A DNA stretch of 64,000 nucleotides from Oscillospiraceae bacterium. GTDB taxonomy: Bacteria; Bacillota; Clostridia; Oscillospirales; Acutalibacteraceae. The stretch's first letter is position 1; each line of letters opens with the position of its first letter. Positions 12,632-22,029 of this stretch are shown here, in pieces. A program made the translations under genes and the position numbers. The stretch lies in assembly GCA_031266365.1 (NCBI GenBank), contig JAISBE010000012.1:445-64444 (forward strand), written 5' to 3'. The notes below the pieces were generated by a model. It ran no database searches, was not told the DNA's origin, and saw only the letters and a program-made list of their open reading frames with translations.

Positions 12632-12710
12632 CGCATTGCCCTCCCTATATTGCAAATTATCATATTTATATTCACGCGCATTATAATATAATTATTTAAG
12701 GACCATGGTT

Positions 12711-13460
12711 ATGTACATACGCACAGAAGGTCTCATAGTAATGGAACAGAATATAGGAGAAAAAGATAAACTCTTAACCATTTTGACAAAATGTGAAGGG
12801 CTAATCCGCGTATTTGCGCGCGGTGTGAAAAGCTTTCTCAATCGCAATGCCTCTGCAACGCAGCTTTTTTGCTATTCTGATTTAATATTATATAAAACTA
12901 AGGATAAATACGTTTTAACCGAAGCGAGTGCAAAAGTGCTATTTTTTGATCTCCGAAACGATATCGAAAAGCTCTCTTTGGCAGAATACTTTTGCGAATT
13001 AACCATCGCCTTAACGTCACATAATCACGAAATTGGCGACATTTTAAGCCTAATTTTAAACTCATTTCATTACCTGCAGACTGGAAAAATTTGCGCAAAT
13101 TTACTCAAACCTATTTTCGAAATAAAAATTCTATGTTTTTCCGGATATACGCCAAATCTTATTTGCTGCAAAGACTGTGCCGCCTACTGTGCATCGACAT
13201 TTTATTGGATTTTAAAAGAAGGCTCGATTTTTTGCGAAAATTGCTTTAAAAATCATTTTGCTCCAGGTTTGACGCTACACAGTGCTCCCTTAGCCGCCTT
13301 ACGCCACATTATTTACGCTGAGCCTAAAAAAACATTTTGGTTTGAACTTTCCTACGAAAGCAAAAAAGAACTAATTTACGCAGCAGAGCAGTATATTCTC
13401 TATTGCCTTGAAAAAGAGTTAAAAACGCTCGATTTTTACAATTTAATCGCTCAAAACTAA
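12711..13460 (+). CDS. recO: DNA repair protein RecO
   Basis: About 249 aa with an OB-fold-like N-terminus (MYIRTEGLIVMEQNIGEKDKLLTILT) and a C-terminal Cys cluster CCKDCAAYC...FCENC. The second ATG has the better RBS spacing. Confidence 0.82.
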   Translation: MYIRTEGLIVMEQNIGEKDKLLTILTKCEGLIRVFARGVKSFLNRNASATQLFCYSDLILYKTKDKYVLTEASAKVLFFDLRNDIEKLSLAEYFCELTIALTSHNHEIGDILSLILNSFHYLQTGKICANLLKPIFEIKILCFSGYTPNLICCKDCAAYCASTFYWILKEGSIFCENCFKNHFAPGLTLHSAPLAALRHIIYAEPKKTFWFELSYESKKELIYAAEQYILYCLEKELKTLDFYNLIAQN

Positions 13461-13821
13461 ACTTCGACCAACCAGCAATAAATCAAATACAATATCAAAA
13501 TAAGTTAAGATTTTTGGCATAGTGAACAATAATTTTCCGCCAATATTTTGACAATAAAAATATTTTTTTAATTCAATTGCAAAATTTGTAAATATATAAT
13601 ATATTATGTATTATAATGTCTATTTTTAGACTTTACTGTAAATAAATACAATTTAAGCCTAATTTAATTATCATTTATCCATCTTTTTGAATATTTTATC
13701 ACAATATCTCCTATTTATTAATTTTATAATAATATTTTATAGTTAAATTTTATAATATTTGTAAATATGCCGTAAAAATAGCAAAAAATCTAAAAAATAC
13801 AAAATCCGCGTTATTTAGCTC

Positions 13822-13850
13822 TTGACATCAAGAATAAATTATAGTAAAAT
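13822..13850 (+). promoter_or_regulatory. promoter candidate ahead of the cassette array
   Basis: TTGACA (13822-13827), 17-nt spacer, TAAAAT (13845-13850). Confidence 0.3.
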
Positions 13851-13915
13851 TAAATTAATATTTGATCAAATAGAAAACTATTATAATTTATAAAAACATG
13901 AAAGGAAGTATACCC

Positions 13916-14500
13916 ATGAACATTAATTTTCGTAAACTCAAAAACTCTTTATTAAGCCTCGGCTTAAGTGCTACCTTATTTTCTGCCTCCGGCCTAAAGA
14001 CGCTTGCTGAGCCGTTATCCCTGAGCTTTGTCAAGCAGCAGCTGAAGGACCTCCTCCCTGCCCCGACGGCGCCCCCTGATGAAATGGCGCGTGGTGTGCG
14101 TCTGCTACTAACGCGTGCGAGCCTATTTACACATGAGGGAGCCCAGCGGCAGGTTAAAGATGCCGATGGTCGAATCAGTAAGACGGAGGAGTGGGCTTCC
14201 GTTGTACGCTTGAATGCCGACACTTTCTACGTTAATACGCATAACTTAGCGAACGTGGCTGGAGTCGCGAAGTCTACGGTGAACGCGCGTCTGAAGGCAG
14301 CAAAAGTAATAAGAGTTTTTCTTACAGAGTCAGATATACGCTATGTGGAGGGGATAGTACCGACTCGCATCAGATCGAACTATTGGAGAAAAAGCACTCT
14401 AACGGCGGCTCCACCCATAGCGGCGCATGCACTGTTTCCCGACAAAGACTCTTCTGATGGCACAACTTGGGAGGAACAATTCGATTTAGCTGATGAATGA
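13916..14500 (+). CDS. cassette protein U1: Sec signal peptide plus GC-rich variable domain
   Basis: AAAGGAAG RBS 7 nt before the ATG. MNINFRKLKNSLLSLGLSATLFSASGLKTLA|EP. The upstream ATG is ACG or out of frame in sister cassettes, so the second ATG is used. Acidic aromatic tail TWEEQFDLADE. Confidence 0.7.
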   Translation: MNINFRKLKNSLLSLGLSATLFSASGLKTLAEPLSLSFVKQQLKDLLPAPTAPPDEMARGVRLLLTRASLFTHEGAQRQVKDADGRISKTEEWASVVRLNADTFYVNTHNLANVAGVAKSTVNARLKAAKVIRVFLTESDIRYVEGIVPTRIRSNYWRKSTLTAAPPIAAHALFPDKDSSDGTTWEEQFDLADE

Positions 14501-14521
14501 GCTGTGAGATGAAAACATCTT

Positions 14522-14542
14522 AATCGGGGGTACCCCCCGATT
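14522..14542 (+). repeat. cassette 3' palindrome (hairpin) after U1
   Basis: AATCGGGGGTACCCCCCGATT, a near-perfect inverted repeat. It is followed by the conserved CTTCACACCCCACCGCATTTAATTTAAATAAAAAATT. Confidence 0.75.
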
Positions 14543-14614
14543 CTTCACACCCCACCGCATTTAATTTAAATAAAAAATTAATATAATTTATAAAAACACG
14601 AAAGGAAGTTACCC

Positions 14615-15274
14615 ATGAACCTTAATTTTCGTAAACTTAAAAACTCCTTATTAAGCCTCGGCTTAAGCGCTACCTTATTTTGCACCGCCGGCCTGGCCGG
14701 AGTGCCCGCTTCAGCTAACGACCCGAACCCAGAGGCAACCAGTGCGTACCAACGGAAGGTAGTAACTATGCAGTACCGGAGCACAGCCGAGGGCGGAGAG
14801 TTTGCCAACCTGTCCGACTGGTTACACCAAGTCACAGACATGTCCACAGAGGCCAGAGAACAGGGAGCTGAGGTGGGCATATACTGGCAGGTCCGCGACC
14901 AGGTACTGTGCCTGAACTCGCAGATCCTGGCGGGCGATTTAGGTATTAAAGTTAACACGCTGAATAAACGACTGAAAGGGACATGCGGTCCGGCGCAGCC
15001 CTTAACGGTAGCACAAGTGAAAGAGATGGGGTACGCGAAACCAAGGAGCTGGTGCAAACGCGCTTTTTGGCCCAAGCGCACGACCCGCATGGTCGAGCCG
15101 CCGACGGCAGCGTGGATTCAAGGACCCGGGGCAAGCCTCGGCCGCCTGGCGACCGCCATCGCTGCCCCTGCACCGGCGCAACCGTTAGCCCCTCCGGTCT
15201 GTATCAGCCCTCAAATTGAAGATCATGATACGGACGGTTTGAATGACTGGGATCCTGACTTTGGATGGACTTGA
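14615..15274 (+). CDS. cassette protein U2
   Basis: MNLNFRKLKNSLLSLGLSATLFCTAGLAGVPASA|NDP. GC-rich body. Tail DWDPDFGWT. Closest paralogue is U3. Confidence 0.7.
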   Translation: MNLNFRKLKNSLLSLGLSATLFCTAGLAGVPASANDPNPEATSAYQRKVVTMQYRSTAEGGEFANLSDWLHQVTDMSTEAREQGAEVGIYWQVRDQVLCLNSQILAGDLGIKVNTLNKRLKGTCGPAQPLTVAQVKEMGYAKPRSWCKRAFWPKRTTRMVEPPTAAWIQGPGASLGRLATAIAAPAPAQPLAPPVCISPQIEDHDTDGLNDWDPDFGWT

Positions 15275-15288
15275 CCCTGAAAAATCTT

Positions 15289-15309
15289 AATCAAGGGTAC
15301 CCCCCGATT
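15289..15309 (+). repeat. cassette 3' palindrome after U2 (imperfect)
   Basis: AATCAAGGGTACCCCCCGATT, in the same position relative to the conserved tail. Confidence 0.65.
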
Positions 15310-15381
15310 CTTCACACCCCACCGCATTTAATTTAAATAAAAAATCATTATAATTTATAAAAACACGAAAGGAAGTTACCC

Positions 15382-16071
15382 ATGAACCTTAATTTTCGTA
15401 AACTTAAAAACTCCTTATTAAGCCTCGGCTTAAGTGCTACCTTATTTTGCACCGCCGGCCTGGCCGGCTTACCCGTTTTCGCTACCGACCCGAACCCAGA
15501 GGAAACCAGGGCGTACCGACAGACTGTAAAAGCTATGCTGTACCCGCGCACACCCACGGGCGTACAGTTTGACACCATGCAAGACTGGTTACACGGAGTA
15601 GCGGACGTGTCCACAGTGGCCAGAGCGCGTGGGGCTGTGGTGGGCATATTCTGGCGGGTCCCAGGTAGGGAATTGTGCCTAAACAAGCATATCATGGCGA
15701 GCGATTAAGGTCTTAAAGTTAACACGGTGGCGAAACGACTGAAACTGGTTAGATCCGGTCCGGCGCGTCGCTTACCGGTAGAACTCGCGATAATGCTGGG
15801 TGGCGCGAACCCAACGCACTGGTCCCGCCGCGCTTTCTGGCACGAGCCAAGACCCCCCGTGGGCGTGACACAAGCGGCAAACGGGGAAGCACTAGCCGAG
15901 GCGAGCCAAGGCCCGCTCGCGATACCACGAGCGGCCAATGCATCGGCAACAGCGTTAGCCCTTCCTGCCTCTACCAGCCCTGAAATTCAAAATTATGACT
16001 GGGATCTCGACGATACACCCTTTAGAGAGTACCCTGACCCGCATGACGACGCGGACGACTTTTGGCGCTGA
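15382..16071 (+). pseudogene. cassette U3, interrupted by one in-frame TAA (15706-15708)
   Basis: The two track ORFs (15382..15708 and 15727..16071) are in the same frame. U2 has GAT TTA GGT ATT AAA GTT AAC where U3 has GAT TAA GGT CTT AAA GTT AAC. Confidence 0.65.
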
Positions 16072-16167
16072 GCCGGGTCGGTCACGGCACCCTGGTGGAC
16101 TAACTGCGTAAGTGCCGGCAGCACGCCCAACCACCGGACTGGGATAAGCTTGAAAATGAAACATCGT

Positions 16168-16189
16168 AATCGGGGGTACCCCCACGATT
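16168..16189 (+). repeat. cassette 3' palindrome after U3
   Basis: AATCGGGGGTACCCCCACGATT. Confidence 0.7.
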
Positions 16190-16262
16190 CTTCACACCCC
16201 ACCGCATTTAATTTAAATAAAAAATTATTATAATTTATAAAAACATGAAAGGAAGTATACCC

Positions 16263-16982
16263 ATGAACATTAATTTTCGTAAACTCAAAAACTCTTTATT
16301 AAGCCTCGGCTTAAGCGCCACCTTATTTTGCACCGCCGGCCTGGCCGGCTTACCCGTTTTCGCTACCGACCCGATACGCGAAGTGGCCTTAAGGGAATGC
16401 GTTATCGGAATCGGAAGGGGGGCAATCAGGTACAGCCGCGGAAAGGCTAGGGCCGTATTTGTAGCTATTGTGAATCAACTAGTAAACCTTGCGTCAGTGG
16501 CTGCCAAGCGTGGAGTCATCGGTCCAGATGGACGGCCAGTGCCGCTACATTGCGTACTACCACTAATCCCGCTGGGACGCGGCGCATTCATGGTGCATAC
16601 ACAACTGCTAGCTGAGGTCGCGAAGGTAAGTAAATCTTCGGTTAACTCAAACTGGTGCGCAATAGGTTATAACAGCTCAACGCCGACTCCCGCGCAGATA
16701 GCACAACTAGAGATGCAACCACACCAGTGTCGGAGCTGGACGGTCCGCACGCTACGGACACCCGAATCTACCGGCGAACCGGAGGTCCACGCCGACGAGG
16801 CGCACACGGATGCTCCGACAAGCACACCAGGGGGATCCTTCGCGCAGGCTGACTGGCCGGAACTCTCGCTACCCGAGCAACCCGAGGGCTACGACCCATT
16901 AGCAGACACAGACACTGGGAGCGGCGAATACGGCTTTTTTGAACGTGACGTCGCTACCGAAGACCAAAGGTGGCTTTTTTGA
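16263..16982 (+). CDS. cassette protein U4
   Basis: MNINFRKLKNSLLSLGLSATLFCTAGLAGLPVFA|TDPIRE... Paralogue of U5. Contains ...SKSSVNSNWCAIGY...CRSWTVRTL. Confidence 0.7.
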   Translation: MNINFRKLKNSLLSLGLSATLFCTAGLAGLPVFATDPIREVALRECVIGIGRGAIRYSRGKARAVFVAIVNQLVNLASVAAKRGVIGPDGRPVPLHCVLPLIPLGRGAFMVHTQLLAEVAKVSKSSVNSNWCAIGYNSSTPTPAQIAQLEMQPHQCRSWTVRTLRTPESTGEPEVHADEAHTDAPTSTPGGSFAQADWPELSLPEQPEGYDPLADTDTGSGEYGFFERDVATEDQRWLF

Positions 16983-17065
16983 CCTTGCCGTCGCTCCCGA
17001 CGACCCTTGGCCTGTACTTAGTCCCAGTGGTTCAAAAGAACCCTTTTAAATGAAAAATTGTAATC

Positions 17066-17079
17066 GGGCGCTCTCGCCC
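17066..17079 (+). repeat. cassette 3' hairpin after U4 (different sequence, same position)
   Basis: GGGCG-CTCT-CGCCC followed by ATTTTTCACACCCAACCGCATTTAATTTAAAT. The stem sequence is replaced but pairing is preserved, and a T-run follows. Confidence 0.6.
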
Positions 17080-17155
17080 ATTTTTCACACCCAACCGCAT
17101 TTAATTTAAATAAAAAATTATTATAATTTACAAAAACATGAAAGGAAGTATACCC

Positions 17156-17884
17156 ATGAACCTTAATTTTTGTAAACTTAAAAGCTCCTTATTAAGCCTC
17201 GGCTTAAGTGCCACCTTATTTTGCTCCAGCCTGGCCTGCTTCCACGTTTCCGCTAACGACCCGATACGCGAAAAGGATTTAAGGGCACAACTTATCGAAC
17301 TCAAAAGAAAAGCCGCGCCAGTCAAGTATCAGCGCGGACGGGCTGGGGCCGTATTTGCAGCTCTTTGGAATGAACTACTAACAATTGCGAATGAGGCTGC
17401 CGCGAGTGGAGTCATAGATGAAGCCGGAAGGCCAGTGCCGCTGCATACCGTACTATCACTAATACGGCTGGGGCCGACAGCATTCGCAATGAACACACCC
17501 GCCCTAGCGAAGGACTTAGGGAGAAGTAAATCTTGTGTTAACAACCAGTTGTGGAAACTAGGTTATACCAGCTCTCCGCTGACTACCGAGCATATGGCAC
17601 AACTAGGGATGCGACCACACCAGTGTCGGAGCTGGACGGTCCGCACGCTCTGCCCACCCGAAAATACCGGCGAAGATGGGGGCTCTGCCGACGAGGCACT
17701 CACGAGTAATCCCCCAGAATCAACCGGCGACTCCTTCGCGCCCGCTGAATGGCCGAGACTATCGCTACCCGATCGACCCGCGGGCGCGGGCCGCTTGGCA
17801 CTCACAGACACTGGGCGAGGCGACGGTGGCTTTTTTGCCCTTGACCATGCTCCAGCCGGCGCCAGCTGGTTTGACCTTTACTGA
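17156..17884 (+). CDS. cassette protein U5
   Basis: MNLNFCKLKSSLLSLGLSATLFCSSLACFHVSA|NDPIRE... Contains LAKDLGRSKSCVNNQLWKLGY...CRSWTVRTL. Tail ASWFDLY. Confidence 0.7.
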   Translation: MNLNFCKLKSSLLSLGLSATLFCSSLACFHVSANDPIREKDLRAQLIELKRKAAPVKYQRGRAGAVFAALWNELLTIANEAAASGVIDEAGRPVPLHTVLSLIRLGPTAFAMNTPALAKDLGRSKSCVNNQLWKLGYTSSPLTTEHMAQLGMRPHQCRSWTVRTLCPPENTGEDGGSADEALTSNPPESTGDSFAPAEWPRLSLPDRPAGAGRLALTDTGRGDGGFFALDHAPAGASWFDLY

Positions 17885-17904
17885 GCTTAGGAATGAAAAA
17901 TCTT

Positions 17905-17925
17905 AGCCGAGGGTTACCCCCGATT
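17905..17925 (+). repeat. cassette 3' palindrome after U5 (degenerate)
   Basis: AGCCGAGGGTTACCCCCGATT followed by CCTCACACCCCACTGCATTTAATTTAAAT. Confidence 0.55.
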
Positions 17926-17997
17926 CCTCACACCCCACTGCATTTAATTTAAATAAAAAATCATTATAATTTATAAAAACACGAAAGGAAGTTACAC

Positions 17998-18603
17998 ATG
18001 AACCTTAATTTTCGTAAATTCAAAAGCTCTTTATTAAGCCTCGGCTTAAGCGCTACCGTATCTTTCGGCTTCGGCCTACCCGGCTTCCACGCTTTCGCCA
18101 TTGATCCAATACCGACCACGCGGGGCGCCTGGAGGGCCGCGTTGTTGAGCGTGAGGCGATACCACGAGCCGGGCAAGAGAGGCAACCACGCTGAAAAGGC
18201 CGATACCAAAGCGCGGTGGCTTAGGCTGGTGGCATTGGCGCCCGGGCCCGAAGGCAATGAAATACTTGGTGCGGACACAGGTGTCGTAGAGCTCGGTGAC
18301 GGGTTCATCCTAATAAACTCGCGACTAGTGGCAAAGAACTTGGGGCGAAGTAAATCGTGCGTCAACGGACTCCTGGCGGAGCTAACTTACGAAAGACAAC
18401 CGATAGCTGGTGAGCACAGGCAAGTGTTGCGCGGGCTCACGAAAAAACCTCGTGAGTGGTCTCTGCGCAAAATCAAGCCGCAAGGCGCGCAGGACGGGGG
18501 CCGAGCCACGACCCACTCGCCCGATACTAGACCTTTCAACCCTGATCAGGACGGCGCGCCTACATGGGATCCTGTCGATGACTGCGACTTTGATGAGATC
18601 TGA
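17998..18603 (+). CDS. cassette protein U6
   Basis: MNLNFRKFKSSLLSLGLSATVSFGFGLPGFHAFA|IDP... Contains LVAKNLGRSKSCVNGLLAELTY...PREWSLRKI. Tail WDPVDDCDFDEI. Confidence 0.7.
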   Translation: MNLNFRKFKSSLLSLGLSATVSFGFGLPGFHAFAIDPIPTTRGAWRAALLSVRRYHEPGKRGNHAEKADTKARWLRLVALAPGPEGNEILGADTGVVELGDGFILINSRLVAKNLGRSKSCVNGLLAELTYERQPIAGEHRQVLRGLTKKPREWSLRKIKPQGAQDGGRATTHSPDTRPFNPDQDGAPTWDPVDDCDFDEI

Positions 18604-18611
18604 ACAGTCTT

Positions 18612-18633
18612 AATCGGGGGTACCCCCACGATT
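18612..18633 (+). repeat. cassette 3' palindrome after U6
   Basis: AATCGGGGGTACCCCCACGATT followed by CTTCACACCCCACCGCATTTAATTTCAAC. Confidence 0.7.
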
Positions 18634-18705
18634 CTTCACACCCCACCGCATTTAATTTCAACAGAAAATTGTTATAATTTATAAAAAAATGAAAGGAAGT
18701 TACAC

Positions 18706-19860
18706 ATGAAACTTAATTTTCGTAAACTTAAAAACTCCTTATTAAGCCTCGGCTTAAGTGCTACCTTATTTTGCACCGCCGGCCTCGCCGGCTTACCCGT
18801 TTTCGCCGAGGGACCTGCCACAATGGATGAGTGGCGCGAAGCGATACTACGCATCCTGGCCGGGATGCCAGAGTACTCTGCGCGGGGGAAGGACGCAGAA
18901 GCCCGCACATCCACTCTGTTGCACAACCAACTGGCAGTGAGCCGACAAGCACTAGCAAACGGCGTGAAACCACCCCTGCAACCAGTGGAAGGGGGGTTCA
19001 CGATCCACTTGTCGGCATTCGCGAGATACACCGGCATTACCGAACGCCAAGTGGAAAGGCAGCTAGTACGCGGAGGGGCACACTTAGCCGGGCGTGGTGA
19101 TGGCTACTGGAGCTGGTACACACTAGTGTCGGTGGACGACGGTGCAGGTCGCGCGGAAGGCGACATAGTTGAAGCCACCGCCGTTCCTCCCATGGTTGAC
19201 GATCGTGGCCAATTGGAAGTCCAGGTAATAGAAAAATACAAGAAGCTGGAACCAAATTTAGCACTACGCAAGACCGCACGGGGAGAGAACCACCGTCAGT
19301 GGCTGAGAGATTTAATCACGATATCGGAAGAAACCCTCGAGCATGGACAGCCGGACCTAGCGACCGTCGTATTACTGGGCGACGGAACCTCCCTCGCTGT
19401 AAACGCGGGCGCGTTGAGGCGTTTGACTGGTATCTGCAAATCGGCGACGAATTACCGCTTACAAGCCGAGGGACTCCACAAACGCAGCTTAGCGGACGCC
19501 AGCGAGCTGGACGCACGCTTTGGGAGACCATTAGGTTTAGCGGACCGCCGGCACTGGGAAGTCTGGACACCCACCCCGCCCGCTGCGATCGACTATTCTG
19601 AAAAAGATAATCCCTGGTTAACCAGGGCCTTTACGGCCGCGAACTGGTCGCGCCGACCCGGGGAACAACCAGCCATCGCGAGAGGGACGGACGGCAAAAC
19701 CCTATGGGTACGGGTCGAGGAGCTCAGCCGAAAATTAGACACAACGGATCTTGACGTTATGAGGCACCTTGAAAACTTGGGGTACCGGCTCACGGGAACT
19801 AAACAGTGCCGGCTCGCCACAGGTGAAGAAGTGGCATTGACGATCTGGGCACAGCGTTAA
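18706..19860 (+). CDS. cassette protein U7 (largest, about three internal HTH-like repeats)
   Basis: MKLNFRKLKNSLLSLGLSATLFCTAGLAGLPVFA|EGP... 384 aa. Three segments of the form hydrophobic strand, helix, turn, helix: FTIHLSAFARYTGITERQVERQL, SLAVNAGALRRLTGICKSATNYRL and TLWVRVEELSRKLDTTDLDVMRHL. Confidence 0.7.
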   Translation: MKLNFRKLKNSLLSLGLSATLFCTAGLAGLPVFAEGPATMDEWREAILRILAGMPEYSARGKDAEARTSTLLHNQLAVSRQALANGVKPPLQPVEGGFTIHLSAFARYTGITERQVERQLVRGGAHLAGRGDGYWSWYTLVSVDDGAGRAEGDIVEATAVPPMVDDRGQLEVQVIEKYKKLEPNLALRKTARGENHRQWLRDLITISEETLEHGQPDLATVVLLGDGTSLAVNAGALRRLTGICKSATNYRLQAEGLHKRSLADASELDARFGRPLGLADRRHWEVWTPTPPAAIDYSEKDNPWLTRAFTAANWSRRPGEQPAIARGTDGKTLWVRVEELSRKLDTTDLDVMRHLENLGYRLTGTKQCRLATGEEVALTIWAQR

Positions 19861-19988
19861 GAACGAAGTTGCACCCCCCGACGACCGCCCCTGGAGCCAG
19901 CGGTGGTGCCTTGGACCCGGCAAATCAGCTTGGGTTCTTCGAACATCAAGACAACGGAAATTCTCAATGAGCCTTGGCATTAAAAAAT

Positions 19989-20014
19989 CTTACCCGGGGG
20001 TGCATCCTCCGATT
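19989..20014 (+). repeat. degenerate cassette 3' element after U7 (first of two)
   Basis: CTTACCCGGGGGTGCATCCTCCGATT followed by CTTAACATCCCACCACATTTAATTTAAG. Recognisably homologous to the tail block but decayed. Confidence 0.5.
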
Positions 20015-20097
20015 CTTAACATCCCACCACATTTAATTTAAGACGACCACACACACCTGGTACGGCGAGGCGCGTGAACGGTGAGATGAAATATCGA

Positions 20098-20118
20098 AAT
20101 CGAGGGTTACCCCCGATT
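20098..20118 (+). repeat. cassette 3' palindrome (second copy after U7, precedes the U8 head)
   Basis: AATCGAGGGTTACCCCCGATT followed by CTTCACGCCCCACCGCATTTAATTTAAATAAAAAATT. Confidence 0.65.
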
Positions 20119-20190
20119 CTTCACGCCCCACCGCATTTAATTTAAATAAAAAATTATTATAATTTACAAAAACATGAAAGGAAGTTACAT

Positions 20191-20952
20191 ATGAAACTTA
20201 ATTTTCGTAAACTCAAAAACTCCTTATTAAGCCTCGGCTTAAGCGCCACCTTATTTTGCAGCTCCGGCCTGGCCAGCTTACCCGTTTTTGCTGAACCTGT
20301 AGTACTATCTGCTCTCAATATGCGTCTAGACGAAAAGAAGAAGCACTGGAGCGACTTTGACGTGGATAGCATGGTGAACACTGAACTGACATATACAGAG
20401 GAGCTGTTAGCCCATGGGGCAGTTGATGAAAAAGGTATGTGGAGTCCCGGTGAAGGGCACCTCGCCGTCGTATACGTAGGTTCTGGAGTTGTCGCAATTA
20501 AGATACAGACGTTATCAAAAAGGGCGGACAGAGCTAAAAGTCGATTAAACAAGGTACTTGCTTCTGCAGGTTATACCCCTTTAACACCGACTGAGGGTCA
20601 CAAGCACATCCTAGCGTCACGACTAAAAGTAAACCCACATGACAGATCTTTAGTGTCCTGGTCGTTCCGAATCAAACCGGATCGCCGCGCGGACGCAGAC
20701 AGGGCATCTAGTGACGCTGAGGCTACGGATGACCCTGCATTACAATTCCCAAGATTAGCAGAGGAACCAGCAGATGCTATGATTTTTTCCAGAATGCAAG
20801 GCGAAGCTACACAGCACGTCTTGCAATTTGGCCAGGGTGATTTAAGGCCGCACCCGGCCAAATTTGTTGCACCAGCTTCTGAGGACCGGATTATTGTTAG
20901 ATGCAGTAAAGACAGGATCCCCGAATGCGCATGCTGCTATCGCGTTGACTGA
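20191..20952 (+). CDS. cassette protein U8 (terminal, less GC-rich, no conserved tail element)
   Basis: MKLNFRKLKNSLLSLGLSATLFCSSGLASLPVFA|EP... The body is visibly less GC-rich than U1-U7. The array ends without the palindrome block. Confidence 0.65.
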   Translation: MKLNFRKLKNSLLSLGLSATLFCSSGLASLPVFAEPVVLSALNMRLDEKKKHWSDFDVDSMVNTELTYTEELLAHGAVDEKGMWSPGEGHLAVVYVGSGVVAIKIQTLSKRADRAKSRLNKVLASAGYTPLTPTEGHKHILASRLKVNPHDRSLVSWSFRIKPDRRADADRASSDAEATDDPALQFPRLAEEPADAMIFSRMQGEATQHVLQFGQGDLRPHPAKFVAPASEDRIIVRCSKDRIPECACCYRVD

Positions 20953-21095
20953 TGTAAAGTTAAAATATACAGCTCCTTTGCTTTTTGATGCCACCTGAAT
21001 AATTATTATGTGATTTTCAAAATTTTAAGTTGCACGACCAGCCATAAGTATGACGGATTTTGCGAAGGTCGATATTATTAACTCACCTAGTCTTC

Positions 21096-21124
21096 TTGAT
21101 GTTTTTGCAAAAATATGTTATAAT
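21096..21124 (+). promoter_or_regulatory. promoter candidate for galU (extended -10)
   Basis: TTGATG (21096-21101), 17-nt spacer ending in TGT, TATAAT (21119-21124). Confidence 0.4.
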
Positions 21125-21159
21125 AATATATGTAAATCAAAATAATTTAGGAGAAATAA

Positions 21160-22029
21160 ATGCAGATCAAAAAAGCCGTCATACCCGCCGCCGGTCTTGG
21201 AACACGAGTTTTACCTGCAACAAAAGTCATGCCAAAAGAAATGCTCCCGATCGTGGACAAGCCTGCCATTCAATACATAGTAGAAGAAGCGGTGGCATCA
21301 GGAATCGAAGATATATTAATTATCACAAGTCGTGGCAAAGACTTGATAGAAGACCACTTTGATAAAACTCCAGAATTAGAAAGCCGCCTATATGGAACCC
21401 AAAAATATAAGCTTCATCAAGATATCCTCGATATTTCAAATCTTGCAAATATATATTTTCTTCGCCAAAAAGAAGCAAAAGGGTTGGGGCATGCCGTTTT
21501 ATGCGCGCGATCATTCGTGGGAAATGAGCCTTTCGCCGTTTTATATGGAGATGACGTAATCATTGGCGAAAAGCCCGTTACCAAGCAACTAATGGAAGTT
21601 TACGAAAAATTCGAGCGCGGTGTTTTAGGCGTTAAAAAGGTCTCCAGTGACGTTATTCAAAACTACAGTTCAATAAAAATAGACCCAATATATGACAATA
21701 TTTATAGTTGTACAGATATGATCGAAAAGCCCTCCAAAGATCAGGTCTTATCGCTCTATTCCATCTTGGGACGCTGCATACTTCCACCTGAGATATTTGA
21801 AGTATTAGAAAATACAAAGCCGGGCCGCGGTGACGAGATTCAATTAACCGATGCCATGTGCATTATAGCGCAAAGCACCGGTTTTATGGCAGTGGATTTT
21901 ATTGGCAAACGTTACGATATGGGAGATAAATTAGGCATAATGAAAGCTTCTGTTGAAACCGCTCTAACTCATCCAGAAATTGGAGAAAGCTTTAGAGGAT
22001 ATCTAAAGAAAGTTTGCATGAATTTATAA
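21160..22029 (+). CDS. galU: UTP--glucose-1-phosphate uridylyltransferase
   Basis: KAVIPAAGLGTRVLPATKVMPKEMLPIVDKPAIQYIVEEA, the canonical GalU N-terminus. 289 aa. Confidence 0.9.
   Translation: MQIKKAVIPAAGLGTRVLPATKVMPKEMLPIVDKPAIQYIVEEAVASGIEDILIITSRGKDLIEDHFDKTPELESRLYGTQKYKLHQDILDISNLANIYFLRQKEAKGLGHAVLCARSFVGNEPFAVLYGDDVIIGEKPVTKQLMEVYEKFERGVLGVKKVSSDVIQNYSSIKIDPIYDNIYSCTDMIEKPSKDQVLSLYSILGRCILPPEIFEVLENTKPGRGDEIQLTDAMCIIAQSTGFMAVDFIGKRYDMGDKLGIMKASVETALTHPEIGESFRGYLKKVCMNL

What the first reader, a model, noticed from the sequence alone, without database searches (positions are those of the whole stretch)
14508..14614. Conserved inter-cassette block with a palindrome whose pairing is preserved by a sequence swap in one copy
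The tail consensus is (A)TGAAAA(C/A)ATCTT-AATCGGGGGTACCCCCCGATT-CTTCACACCCCACCGCATTTAATTTAAATAAAAAATT. It runs directly into the next head.

Copies of the palindrome lie at 14522, 15289, 16168, 17905, 18612, 19989 (decayed) and 20098. After U4 (17066-17079) the G5/C5 palindrome is replaced by GGGCG-CTCT-CGCCC at the same position, now followed by a T-run. The hairpin rather than its sequence therefore seems to be conserved.

Most copies lack a proper U-tract. The hairpin could be a terminator or RNA-stability element, or a recombination or protein-binding site that defines cassette boundaries.
Basis: seen in the sequence. Interest (0 to 1): 0.6.

Follow-up and report, generated by a model that had tools for sequence, protein, structure and literature searches.

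The report
Repeated terminator-like hairpin between tandem genes
The repeated palindrome is the stem-loop at the end of each gene in a tandem array of secreted-protein genes, copied along with the next gene's promoter and kept alike by gene conversion; it is most likely a leaky terminator or RNA-end protector, and the supposed structure-preserving sequence swap is not statistically supported.

Summary

The block is the intergenic module of a tandem array of eight secreted IBD-domain genes. In order it holds the ancestral stop zone, an A-rich spacer, a G5/C6 palindrome, an AT-rich TATAAT promoter, the RBS and a conserved signal peptide.

- **Hairpin quality.** Only one copy (14522) is a perfect 9-bp hairpin. 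The others carry uncompensated mismatches or a bulge.
- **The "swap" variant.** GGGCGCTCTCGCC recurs at a different junction in a second strain, so it is one allele spread by conversion. It needs a register shift and keeps about half the stability. Random substitutions do as well in 13-36% of trials.
- **Conservation.** Identity rises smoothly across the hairpin (0.76 to 0.92), and the head is a recombination mosaic (Rm at least 12).
- **U-tract.** Only the 17066 copy has a proper one.
- **Second array.** A paralogous array elsewhere in the genome has an unrelated junction block with its own canonical-looking terminator hairpin, which has been improved in one copy.

Best reading: a duplicated, weakly constrained 3'-end stem-loop acting as a leaky terminator or stabiliser. 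No attC features or nearby recombinase were found. Ordinary element in an interesting array.

The parts
14508..14614 (+). Inter-cassette block 1 (the finding). It holds the A-rich spacer, the perfect palindrome 14522-14542, CTTCACACCCCACCGC, an AT-rich stretch, TATAAT 14582-14587 and the RBS 14601-14608. The next ATG is at 14615.
15289..15309 (+). Palindrome copy T2. It has two uncompensated A.C mismatches in the left arm (-3.6 kcal/mol).
16168..16189 (+). Palindrome copy T3, with an inserted A that bulges the right arm (-10.3 kcal/mol).
17062..17087 (+). Copy T4, the 'swap' allele AATCGGGCGCTCTCGCCC. The 5-bp G-C stem is at 17066-17079 and is followed by ATTTTTCA. The upstream A-run can pair with the T-run. 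This is the only copy with canonical terminator features.
17905..17925 (+). Palindrome copy T5, decayed: outer arm AGCC and a G>A change (-5.4 kcal/mol).
18612..18633 (+). Palindrome copy T6, the same A-bulge allele as T3.
19989..20041 (+). Decayed tail T7a with no head behind it. Its G-run is G5 here and G6 in the second strain.
20042..20085 (+). GC-rich remnant of the 3' end of a deleted ninth cassette. It lies between tails T7a and T7b.
   Evidence: the same remnant is in L021
20098..20118 (+). Palindrome copy T7b, with one A.C mismatch (-7.8 kcal/mol).
14543..14720 (+). An example of the highly homogenised core, with 0.87-1.0 pairwise identity among copies. It runs from the right flank of the palindrome through the promoter, the RBS and the signal-peptide codons. 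It is a mosaic between copies.
13868..13995 (+). Head of the first cassette. Homology to the repeated block starts here (AAATAGAAAACTATTATAAT...), and no tail or palindrome lies upstream.
13822..13850 (+). Strong sigma-70-like promoter TTGACA-17-TAAAAT upstream of the array and outside the repeat. It could drive read-through transcription of the array.
13898..20952 (+). The tandem array of eight secreted IBD-domain genes that the block punctuates. No tail follows the last gene.

Best explanation
**What it is.** The block is the intergenic module of a tandemly duplicated gene. The palindrome is the stem-loop of each cassette's 3' untranslated end. It starts about 24 nt after the ancestral TGA(GCTT) stop. 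About 40 nt downstream of its right arm lies the TATAAT promoter, then the RBS and signal-peptide codons of the next cassette.

**Why it recurs.** It is present at every junction because the duplication unit carried it. A stretch of about 230 bp is also continually homogenised by unequal crossing-over and short-tract gene conversion. The hairpin lies on the weakly homogenised 5' edge of that tract.

**Likely function (inferred, not shown).** Where the stem is intact, the transcribed stem-loop acts as a leaky intrinsic terminator or a 3'-exonuclease block. This would insulate and stabilise each cassette's mRNA.

**Strength of constraint.** Constraint on the hairpin is weak. Several copies are decaying. 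One allele (GGGCGCTCTCGCC) arose once, probably as a multi-base event. It then spread to a second junction by conversion. In T4 it gained a fifth G-C pair and a T5 run, which gives that copy a canonical terminator look.
For: **Shown.**
- Anatomy and position of the block.
- The block occurs only in this array in the genome.
- Identity rises smoothly across the block: 0.29 in the body, 0.48, 0.76, arms 0.80-0.83, 0.92, then 0.87-1.0 through the head, and 0.37 in the mature part.
- 142 of 231 site pairs fail the four-gamete test, and Rm is at least 12 in about 180 nt among 10 copies.
- Head types are shuffled relative to bodies between the window and metagenome contig L021.
- The swap allele sits at two junctions in different flank contexts.
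- T4 has a 5-bp G-C stem followed by ATTTTTCA.
- In this genome, hairpins of -14 kcal/mol or stronger with at least 5 T are enriched after genes: 18 of 779 gene ends against 3 of 508 intragenic controls. The organism therefore uses canonical terminators.

**Independent parallel: the second IBD array on contig C8.**
- Its junction block is unrelated in sequence and has its own hairpin at the same relative place.
- In J1 this hairpin is a 14-bp stem followed by TGATTTTTC (z -5.1).
- J1 differs from J2 by six changes clustered in the left arm and loop, and none in the right arm.
- At least three of these changes are derived relative to the source gene. Two of the three extend the stem.
Against: - No transcript data exist.
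- Seven of the eight window copies have only 2-4 T in the 8 nt after the stem.
- T-poor hairpins are not enriched after genes in this genome.
- T2 and T5 fold no better than shuffled sequence.
- The last cassette has no such hairpin.
- There is no significant covariation.
- The array comes from a MAG, and the metagenome contigs break inside the repeats. Some junction assignments could therefore be assembly artefacts.
Confidence: 0.55

Rival explanations
1. The palindrome is a passive passenger with no present function. It hitch-hikes on the edge of the homogenised head block. Its variants reflect mutation processes specific to palindromes: replication template switching that rewrites arms and loops in one step, and slippage in the G5/C6 runs.
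For: - The arms are no better conserved than their neighbours.
- Five of seven variant lineages weaken the stem without compensation.
- The swap allele's pairing is within random expectation.
- The G-run length differs between strains in T7a.
- Template switching is documented to create and repair stems in single events (PMC8794818).
- The one-arm-only cluster of changes in the C8 junction J1 has that signature.
Against: - The loop is more variable (0.61) than the arms (0.80-0.83).
- All copies keep at least 3-5 G-C pairs.
- T4 gained both an extra G-C pair and a T-run.
- An unrelated hairpin with a T-run sits at the same relative position in the second array.
Confidence: 0.25
2. The palindrome is a DNA-level recombination site or hot spot that defines cassette boundaries. 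A cruciform or hairpin would be used for crossover, integron-attC-like or break-induced. This would let cassettes be gained, lost and exchanged between strains.
For: - Contig L021, from the same metagenome, carries three cassettes (X1-X3) that are absent from the genome.
- At the X1 junction, homology to the common block begins at the right arm of the palindrome.
- A deleted-cassette remnant lies between two tails.
- The C8 array also has an inverted repeat right at the edge of its duplicated segment.
Against: - There is no GTTRRRY/RYYYAAC core, and no tail after the last cassette.
- Every cassette has its own promoter.
- The only tyrosine recombinase is on contig C6.
- Conversion breakpoints are scattered over the whole head, and bodies also share segments.
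- Only one junction breaks at the palindrome.
- No other copies or donor locus exist in the genome, in 40 relatives or in the public scans.
Confidence: 0.07
3. The palindrome is an operator for a dimeric DNA-binding regulator. It has 9-bp arms and a 3-bp spacer, centred about 63 bp upstream of the presumed start site. Binding would co-regulate all the internal promoters.
For: - The inverted repeat is symmetric and lies at a fixed distance from TATAAT in every copy.
- The adjacent CTTCACACCCCACCGC is very well conserved (0.92).
Against: - The first cassette has the same promoter and head but no palindrome.
- The arm sequence varies, and the swap allele changes the inner bases a protein would read.
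- No candidate regulator is linked.
- No other copies exist in the genome.
Confidence: 0.08
4. The array is one long transcript from the strong promoter at 13822-13850. The hairpins would be RNase III or processing sites, or segment stabilisers, that cut it into unit mRNAs.
For: - A strong TTGACA-17-TAAAAT promoter lies upstream.
- The internal promoters have poor -35 boxes.
- Most hairpins lack U-tracts.
Against: - Every unit keeps an invariant TATAAT (identity 1.0).
- The 9-bp stems are short for RNase III.
- There are no data on transcripts.
Confidence: 0.05

Closest known systems
Rho-independent (intrinsic) transcription terminators and 3' stabilising stem-loops of Bacillota
   Same: A G+C-rich stem of 5-9 bp with a 3-4 nt loop lies a few tens of nt after the stop codon and before the next promoter. 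An upstream A-run is present. T4 has a T5 run directly after the stem.
   Different: Seven of the eight window copies lack the U-tract (2-4 T in 8 nt). Several stems are degraded. No 3'-end data are available.
Template-switch (quasipalindrome) mutation that creates or repairs stems (Monttinen & Loytynoja 2022, PMC8794818)
   Same: Multi-base clustered changes are confined to a hairpin and leave it still foldable. One case is the A-to-B allele here: 5 changes in 13 nt. The other is C8 junction J1 against J2: six changes clustered in the left arm and loop, none in the right arm.
   Different: No donor template for the B allele was identified, so the mechanism is inferred from the pattern alone.
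Conserved-flank cassette families. Examples, from my own knowledge, are the upstream and downstream homology sequences of Borrelia hermsii vsp/vlp, and the conserved 5' region plus signal peptide of Mycoplasma vlp/vsp genes.
   Same: A near-identical 5' region with signal peptide, and a short 3' homology block, flank highly diverged mature-protein bodies. There is evidence of recombination in the flanks and of strain-level cassette turnover.
   Different: Every cassette here has its own promoter and RBS, so there is no single expression site and no silent archive. No invertase or site-specific system is present.
Integron attC sites
   Same: An imperfect palindrome lies at the 3' end of each unit in a one-directional array.
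   Different: There is no IntI nearby and no R/L core boxes. The palindrome is 21 nt rather than 60-140 nt. Cassettes carry promoters. The last cassette lacks the element.

Membership tests
Intrinsic (Rho-independent) terminator | G+C-rich stem-loop shortly downstream of the stop codon, on the coding strand | tested here: met
   Stems of 5-9 bp lie 10-30 nt after the stops. T1 is -14.1 kcal/mol, T3 and T6 are -10.3, and T4 is -8.8. T2 (-3.6) and T5 (-5.4) are degraded.
Intrinsic (Rho-independent) terminator | Run of U (at least 5 of 8 nt) immediately after the stem | tested here: not met
   Only T4 (ATTTTTCA) meets it. The other window copies have 2-4 T. Genome-wide, hairpins with a T-run are enriched after genes and T-poor hairpins are not.
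Intrinsic (Rho-independent) terminator | Transcript 3' ends or a read-through drop at the site | not testable with these tools
Structured RNA element supported by covariation | Compensatory base-pair changes beyond chance | tested here: not met
   There are 0 compensatory pairs in the T1 register, and the share of paired cells equals the shuffles. One G-C to C-G pair, shared by two copies, appears in the RNAalifold register, with a covariation term of -0.1. The simulation gives 13-36%. There is no Rfam family.
Integron attC / gene cassette array | Adjacent IntI-type tyrosine recombinase and attI | tested here: not met
   The genome has a single PF00589 match, on contig C6 and not in the window's contig C22.
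Integron attC / gene cassette array | R''-L''/L'-R' boxes with a GTTRRRY core, promoterless cassettes, and an attC after every cassette including the last | tested here: not met
   The tail contains no GTT or RYYYAAC core. Each unit has TATAAT and an RBS. No tail follows the eighth gene.
REP/BIME-like dispersed palindromic repeats | Many copies dispersed in intergenic regions of the genome | tested here: not met
   All 8 copies lie in this one array. nhmmer and a fuzzy search of the whole genome found none elsewhere. None were found in 40 relatives.
Conserved-flank recombining cassette family (Borrelia UHS/DHS-like) | Recombination within conserved flanks that shuffles variable bodies | tested here: met
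   Mosaic heads: 142 of 231 site pairs are incompatible and Rm is at least 12. Cassette content differs in L021.
Conserved-flank recombining cassette family (Borrelia UHS/DHS-like) | A single expression site with a silent, promoterless archive | tested here: not met
   Every cassette has an invariant TATAAT, an RBS and an ATG.

The most novel reading that the evidence does not exclude
The junction palindromes are not just terminators. They would be the footprints, or the promoters, of the duplication and exchange process itself. In this reading hairpin-forming inverted repeats arise at cassette junctions by template switching. This would have happened independently in both IBD arrays. In the C8 array the right arm and T-run were recruited from a copied coding fragment of the neighbouring gene. 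The repeats then act as preferred break or crossover points that set the left edge of the exchangeable head block. The result would be a recombinase-free way to turn over host-mimicking effector cassettes between strains.
Probability: 0.1. Interest if true: 0.55.

Novelty: new member of a known kind. Interest (0 to 1): 0.28.

Why it matters
On its own the element is ordinary. It is a duplicated terminator-plus-promoter module.

It matters mainly as part of the architecture that lets a reduced gut Clostridia genome keep eight or more secreted genes individually expressed and recombining. These genes resemble protist transcription factors (IBD).

Two points are useful beyond this locus:
- Apparent "structure-preserving swaps" in repeated hairpins can come from one multi-base event spread by gene conversion. 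They should not be scored as covariation.
- The second array shows a terminator-like hairpin assembled partly from a duplicated coding fragment. This is a neat case of how terminators can arise.

Tried and rejected
- **Rfam scan** of 13400-21200 at E up to 1. It gave only a chance rli22 hit at 27 bits against an 80-bit threshold.
- **Extra copies or a donor locus.** An exact or 3-mismatch pattern, nhmmer and a fuzzy palindrome search of the whole genome found none.
  - Forty relatives gave only two short AT-rich chance hits.
  - Pattern scans of genome contigs and metagenome contigs, and a protein-profile scan, gave nothing.
  - Profile searches of 5.8 billion proteins found only the window's own genes and three contigs of JGI metagenome 3300042612.
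- **Tail derived from the recO 3' end or the array's right flank.** Rejected: local alignment p is above 0.25.
- **X1 3' flank homologous to the flank after the last gene.** Rejected: p is 0.24.
- **Homology between the junction blocks of the two arrays.** Only AT-rich promoter-like similarity was found, and the 3' flank gives p of 0.06-0.15.
- **RBS-sequestering helix predicted by RNAalifold in the 5' UTR.** It is weak, at -1.9 to -6.6 kcal/mol with z from -1.9 to +1.2.
- **attC or integron reading.** Rejected; see the membership test.
- **Exact-sequence look-ups of C8 array proteins in other contigs.** Not on record.

Full report
**1. Context**

Window 13.8-21.0 kb holds eight co-directional genes between recO (12705-13460) and galU (21160-22029).

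- Each gene has a near-identical AT-rich head. The head holds TATAAT, the RBS AAAGGAAG and the signal peptide MNLNFRKLKNSLLSLGLSATLF...
- Each gene has a diverged body of 46-57% GC, in a genome whose flanks run at 28-40% GC.
- The bodies carry the Pfam IBD domain PF10416. Three of the seven tested are above the curated cut-off.
- The genome is a 1.10-Mb, 22-contig assembly.
- Its MetG is closest (72% aa identity) to gut MAGs labelled Ruminiclostridium, Ruminococcaceae and Clostridium sp. CAG:557.
- Earlier notes of this scan already treat the IBD array itself. This report concerns the inter-cassette block.

**2.

- The palindrome copies and the T4 replacement lie at the stated coordinates.
- The flank motif occurs 7 times, against 0 expected.
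- Aligned, the block reads, in order:
  - an ancestral stop zone, TGAGCTT;
  - an A-rich spacer, ATGAAAAATCTT;
  - the palindrome;
  - CTTCACACCCCACCGC;
  - an AT-rich stretch;
  - an invariant TATAAT;
  - the RBS and the ATG.
- The first cassette shares only the part from about 13868 onward and has no palindrome upstream. The last cassette has no tail behind it. So there are n-1 junction blocks, as expected for tandem duplication.
- An eighth, decayed tail (about 19989-20041) is followed by a 44-nt GC-rich remnant and then by tail T7b. This is the scar of a deleted ninth cassette. The same scar is present in a second strain.

**3. Quality of the hairpins**

| Copy | MFE of palindrome alone (kcal/mol) |
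|---|---|
| T1 | -14.1 (perfect 9 bp) |
| T3, T6 | -10.3 (A bulge) |
| T4 | -8.8 |
| T7a | -8.8 |
| T7b | -7.8 |
| T5 | -5.4 |
| T2 | -3.6 |

- With flanks, only T1 (z -3.4) and T4 (z -2.3) beat shuffled sequence.
- The 8 nt after the stem hold 2-4 T, except in T4 (ATTTTTCA, 5 T).
- In T4 the upstream A-run can pair with the T-run, which gives it the look of a bidirectional terminator.
- On the minus strand the stems are followed by AAGATTTTTC. Nothing on that strand needs termination.

**4. More copies from a second strain**

Public scans by pattern and by profile returned nothing. Exact-protein look-ups recovered three contigs of JGI metagenome 3300042612.

- L019 and L020 are 99.5-99.8% identical to window 13075-15419 and 15439-17520.
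- L021 (7070 bp) ends in the same U8 and galU at 99.6% identity. Upstream it carries three cassettes, X1-X3, whose bodies are absent from the genome. It also carries a U7 allele at about 96% identity.
- Cassette content therefore differs between co-occurring strains.
- One caveat applies. All contigs break inside the repeated block, and the window itself is from a MAG, so junction order could be affected by assembly.

**5. The "swap" is one allele, not independent compensation**

- L021's X2 junction reads AATCGGGCGCTCTCGCCGATT. This is the same inner segment as T4, but with the common GATTCTT flank.
- Its left flank is T3-like and its head is T6-like. The segment has therefore moved by conversion.
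- Relative to the common allele it has 5 changes in 13 nt. It pairs only after a one-base register shift. It keeps -7.0 kcal/mol, against -14.6 for the common allele.
- Five random substitutions keep at least that much pairing in 13-36% of simulations.
- Counting pairs in the T1 register gives 0 compensatory pairs. The share of paired cells, 82.7%, equals the shuffles.
- RNAalifold's consensus register gives a single G-C to C-G pair, shared by T4 and X2t, with a covariation term of -0.1.
- T4 differs from X2t by G>C and C>T. These two changes add a fifth G-C pair and create the T5 run. This is suggestive of selection for termination, but it is a single case.

**6. Why the block is conserved**

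- Mean pairwise identity among nine independent copies changes as follows:

| Segment | Identity |
|---|---|
| Body end | 0.29 |
| Stop zone | 0.48 |
| A-rich spacer | 0.76 |
| Left arm | 0.80 |
| Loop | 0.61 |
| Right arm | 0.83 |
| CTTCACACCCCACCGC | 0.92 |
| Promoter region | 0.88-1.0 |
| Signal-peptide codons | 0.87 |
| Mature part | 0.37 |

- The hairpin lies on a smooth edge gradient and is not a conservation peak.
- Within the core there are 22 informative sites. They give 142 incompatible pairs out of 231 and a Hudson-Kaplan Rm of at least 12.
- Head variants are recombined in segments of 20-30 nt, for example in X3t.
- Concerted evolution by short-tract conversion therefore explains the conservation. 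It does not require that each part be functional.

**7. Tests of the recombination-site idea**

- The tail has no attC-type core boxes.
- Every unit has a promoter.
- The last unit lacks the element.
- The genome's only tyrosine recombinase is on contig C6.
- One observation points the other way. After X1 there are about 120 nt of unique sequence, and homology resumes at the right arm of the palindrome (CCTTTT|CCCCCGATTCTT). One case cannot separate a preferred break point from chance. No source for the unique stretch was found.

**8. An independent comparator**

The genome has a second IBD array on contig C8 (L022, minus strand 6334 to 3069). It holds three genes with a related signal peptide and AT-richer bodies.

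- Its junction block is unrelated to that of array 1.
- The block contains a copied piece of the upstream neuA-like gene's last codons (..IDTELDFSIAEHVKN..) together with that gene's downstream promoter region.
- A hairpin sits exactly at the left edge of that copied piece. Its right arm and the following TGATTTTTC lie inside the copied coding fragment.
- In junction J1 the stem is 14 bp. The 86-nt region folds at -28 kcal/mol with z -5.1, and the consensus scan calls it a terminator.
- J2 differs from J1 by six changes clustered in the left arm and loop, and by none in the right arm. The background divergence between the two junctions is about 8%.
- J2 matches the source gene at three of these sites. 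J1 is therefore derived there, and two of the three changes extend its stem.
- Either selection for a junction terminator or one-step template switching (PMC8794818) produced this pattern. Both readings make a 3'-end hairpin a recurrent feature of this gene family's junctions.

**9. Genome grammar**

- A crude survey covered 779 gene ends and 508 intragenic controls.
- Hairpins of -14 kcal/mol or stronger with at least 5 T occur at 18 gene ends and in 3 controls.
- T-poor hairpins of the same strength are equally common in both sets: 32 of 779 and 29 of 508.
- Canonical terminators therefore exist in this organism. The T-poor array hairpins cannot be called terminators on sequence grounds alone.

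**10. Verdict**

- The block is a duplicated terminator-like and promoter module, homogenised by gene conversion.
- The palindrome is most likely a weakly constrained, leaky terminator or 3'-end stabiliser. This functional assignment is inferred.
- A purely passive palindrome shaped by template switching and slippage is the main rival.
- The claim of structure-preserving covariation is not supported.
- Recombination-site and operator readings are not excluded but lack their defining features.
- Transcript 3'-end mapping and reporter assays would decide.

Noticed in passing
G000:C8 about 221.0-224.3 kb (L022 6334-3069, minus strand): A second tandem array of three IBD-domain genes. It has a related signal peptide (MKFKRLKFKNLLMSLTLSAS..VFADP), AT-richer bodies and GC-rich proline-rich C-terminal repeats. 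Its junction block includes a duplicated fragment of the neighbouring neuA-like gene's 3' coding end. A terminator-like hairpin is built partly from that fragment.
   Followed up: partly
L021 (JGI metagenome 3300042612, contig Ga0466705_336747) 62-3918: Three further cassettes (X1 330 aa, X2 broken 144+325 aa, X3 348 aa). They have the same head and tail, but their bodies are absent from the window's genome. This is strain-level cassette turnover. Short C-terminal segments are shared with U3, U6 and U8.
   Followed up: partly
L103 1252-2154 (G006:C107), also G006:C54 and C4: Another reduced genome of the same family (1.3 Mb) has three dispersed IBD genes with stronger Pfam scores (E 1.8e-18). 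The one inspected is AT-rich and has its own signal peptide. IBD genes are therefore older in this bacterial lineage, and only array 1 is GC-rich.
   Followed up: partly
window 13584-13756: A 173-bp AT-rich segment upstream of the array is absent from the second strain (L019). It is bounded by 15-bp direct repeats, AAAATTTGTAAATAT and AATATTTGTAAATAT.
   Followed up: partly
window 13822-13850: A near-consensus sigma-70-type promoter, TTGACA-17-TAAAAT, lies just upstream of the first cassette and outside the repeated head. The array may also be read through as one transcript.
   Followed up: no
window 16932-17005: A 34-nt direct duplication with 40-nt spacing lies at the 3' end of the fourth cassette (GGCTTTTTTGA.CGT..GTCGCT.CCGA.GACC). 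It probably shifts or truncates the C-terminus just before tail T4.
   Followed up: no
window 19995-20000 vs L021 5375-5381: The G-run of the decayed tail T7a is G5 in the window and G6 in the second strain. The homopolymer runs of the palindrome are slippage-prone.
   Followed up: yes
window 19600-19605 vs L021 4914-4985: The U7 allele of the second strain carries about 66 extra nt. It is about 96% identical before that point and 99.6% after it. Recombination breakpoints therefore also fall inside cassette bodies.
   Followed up: partly
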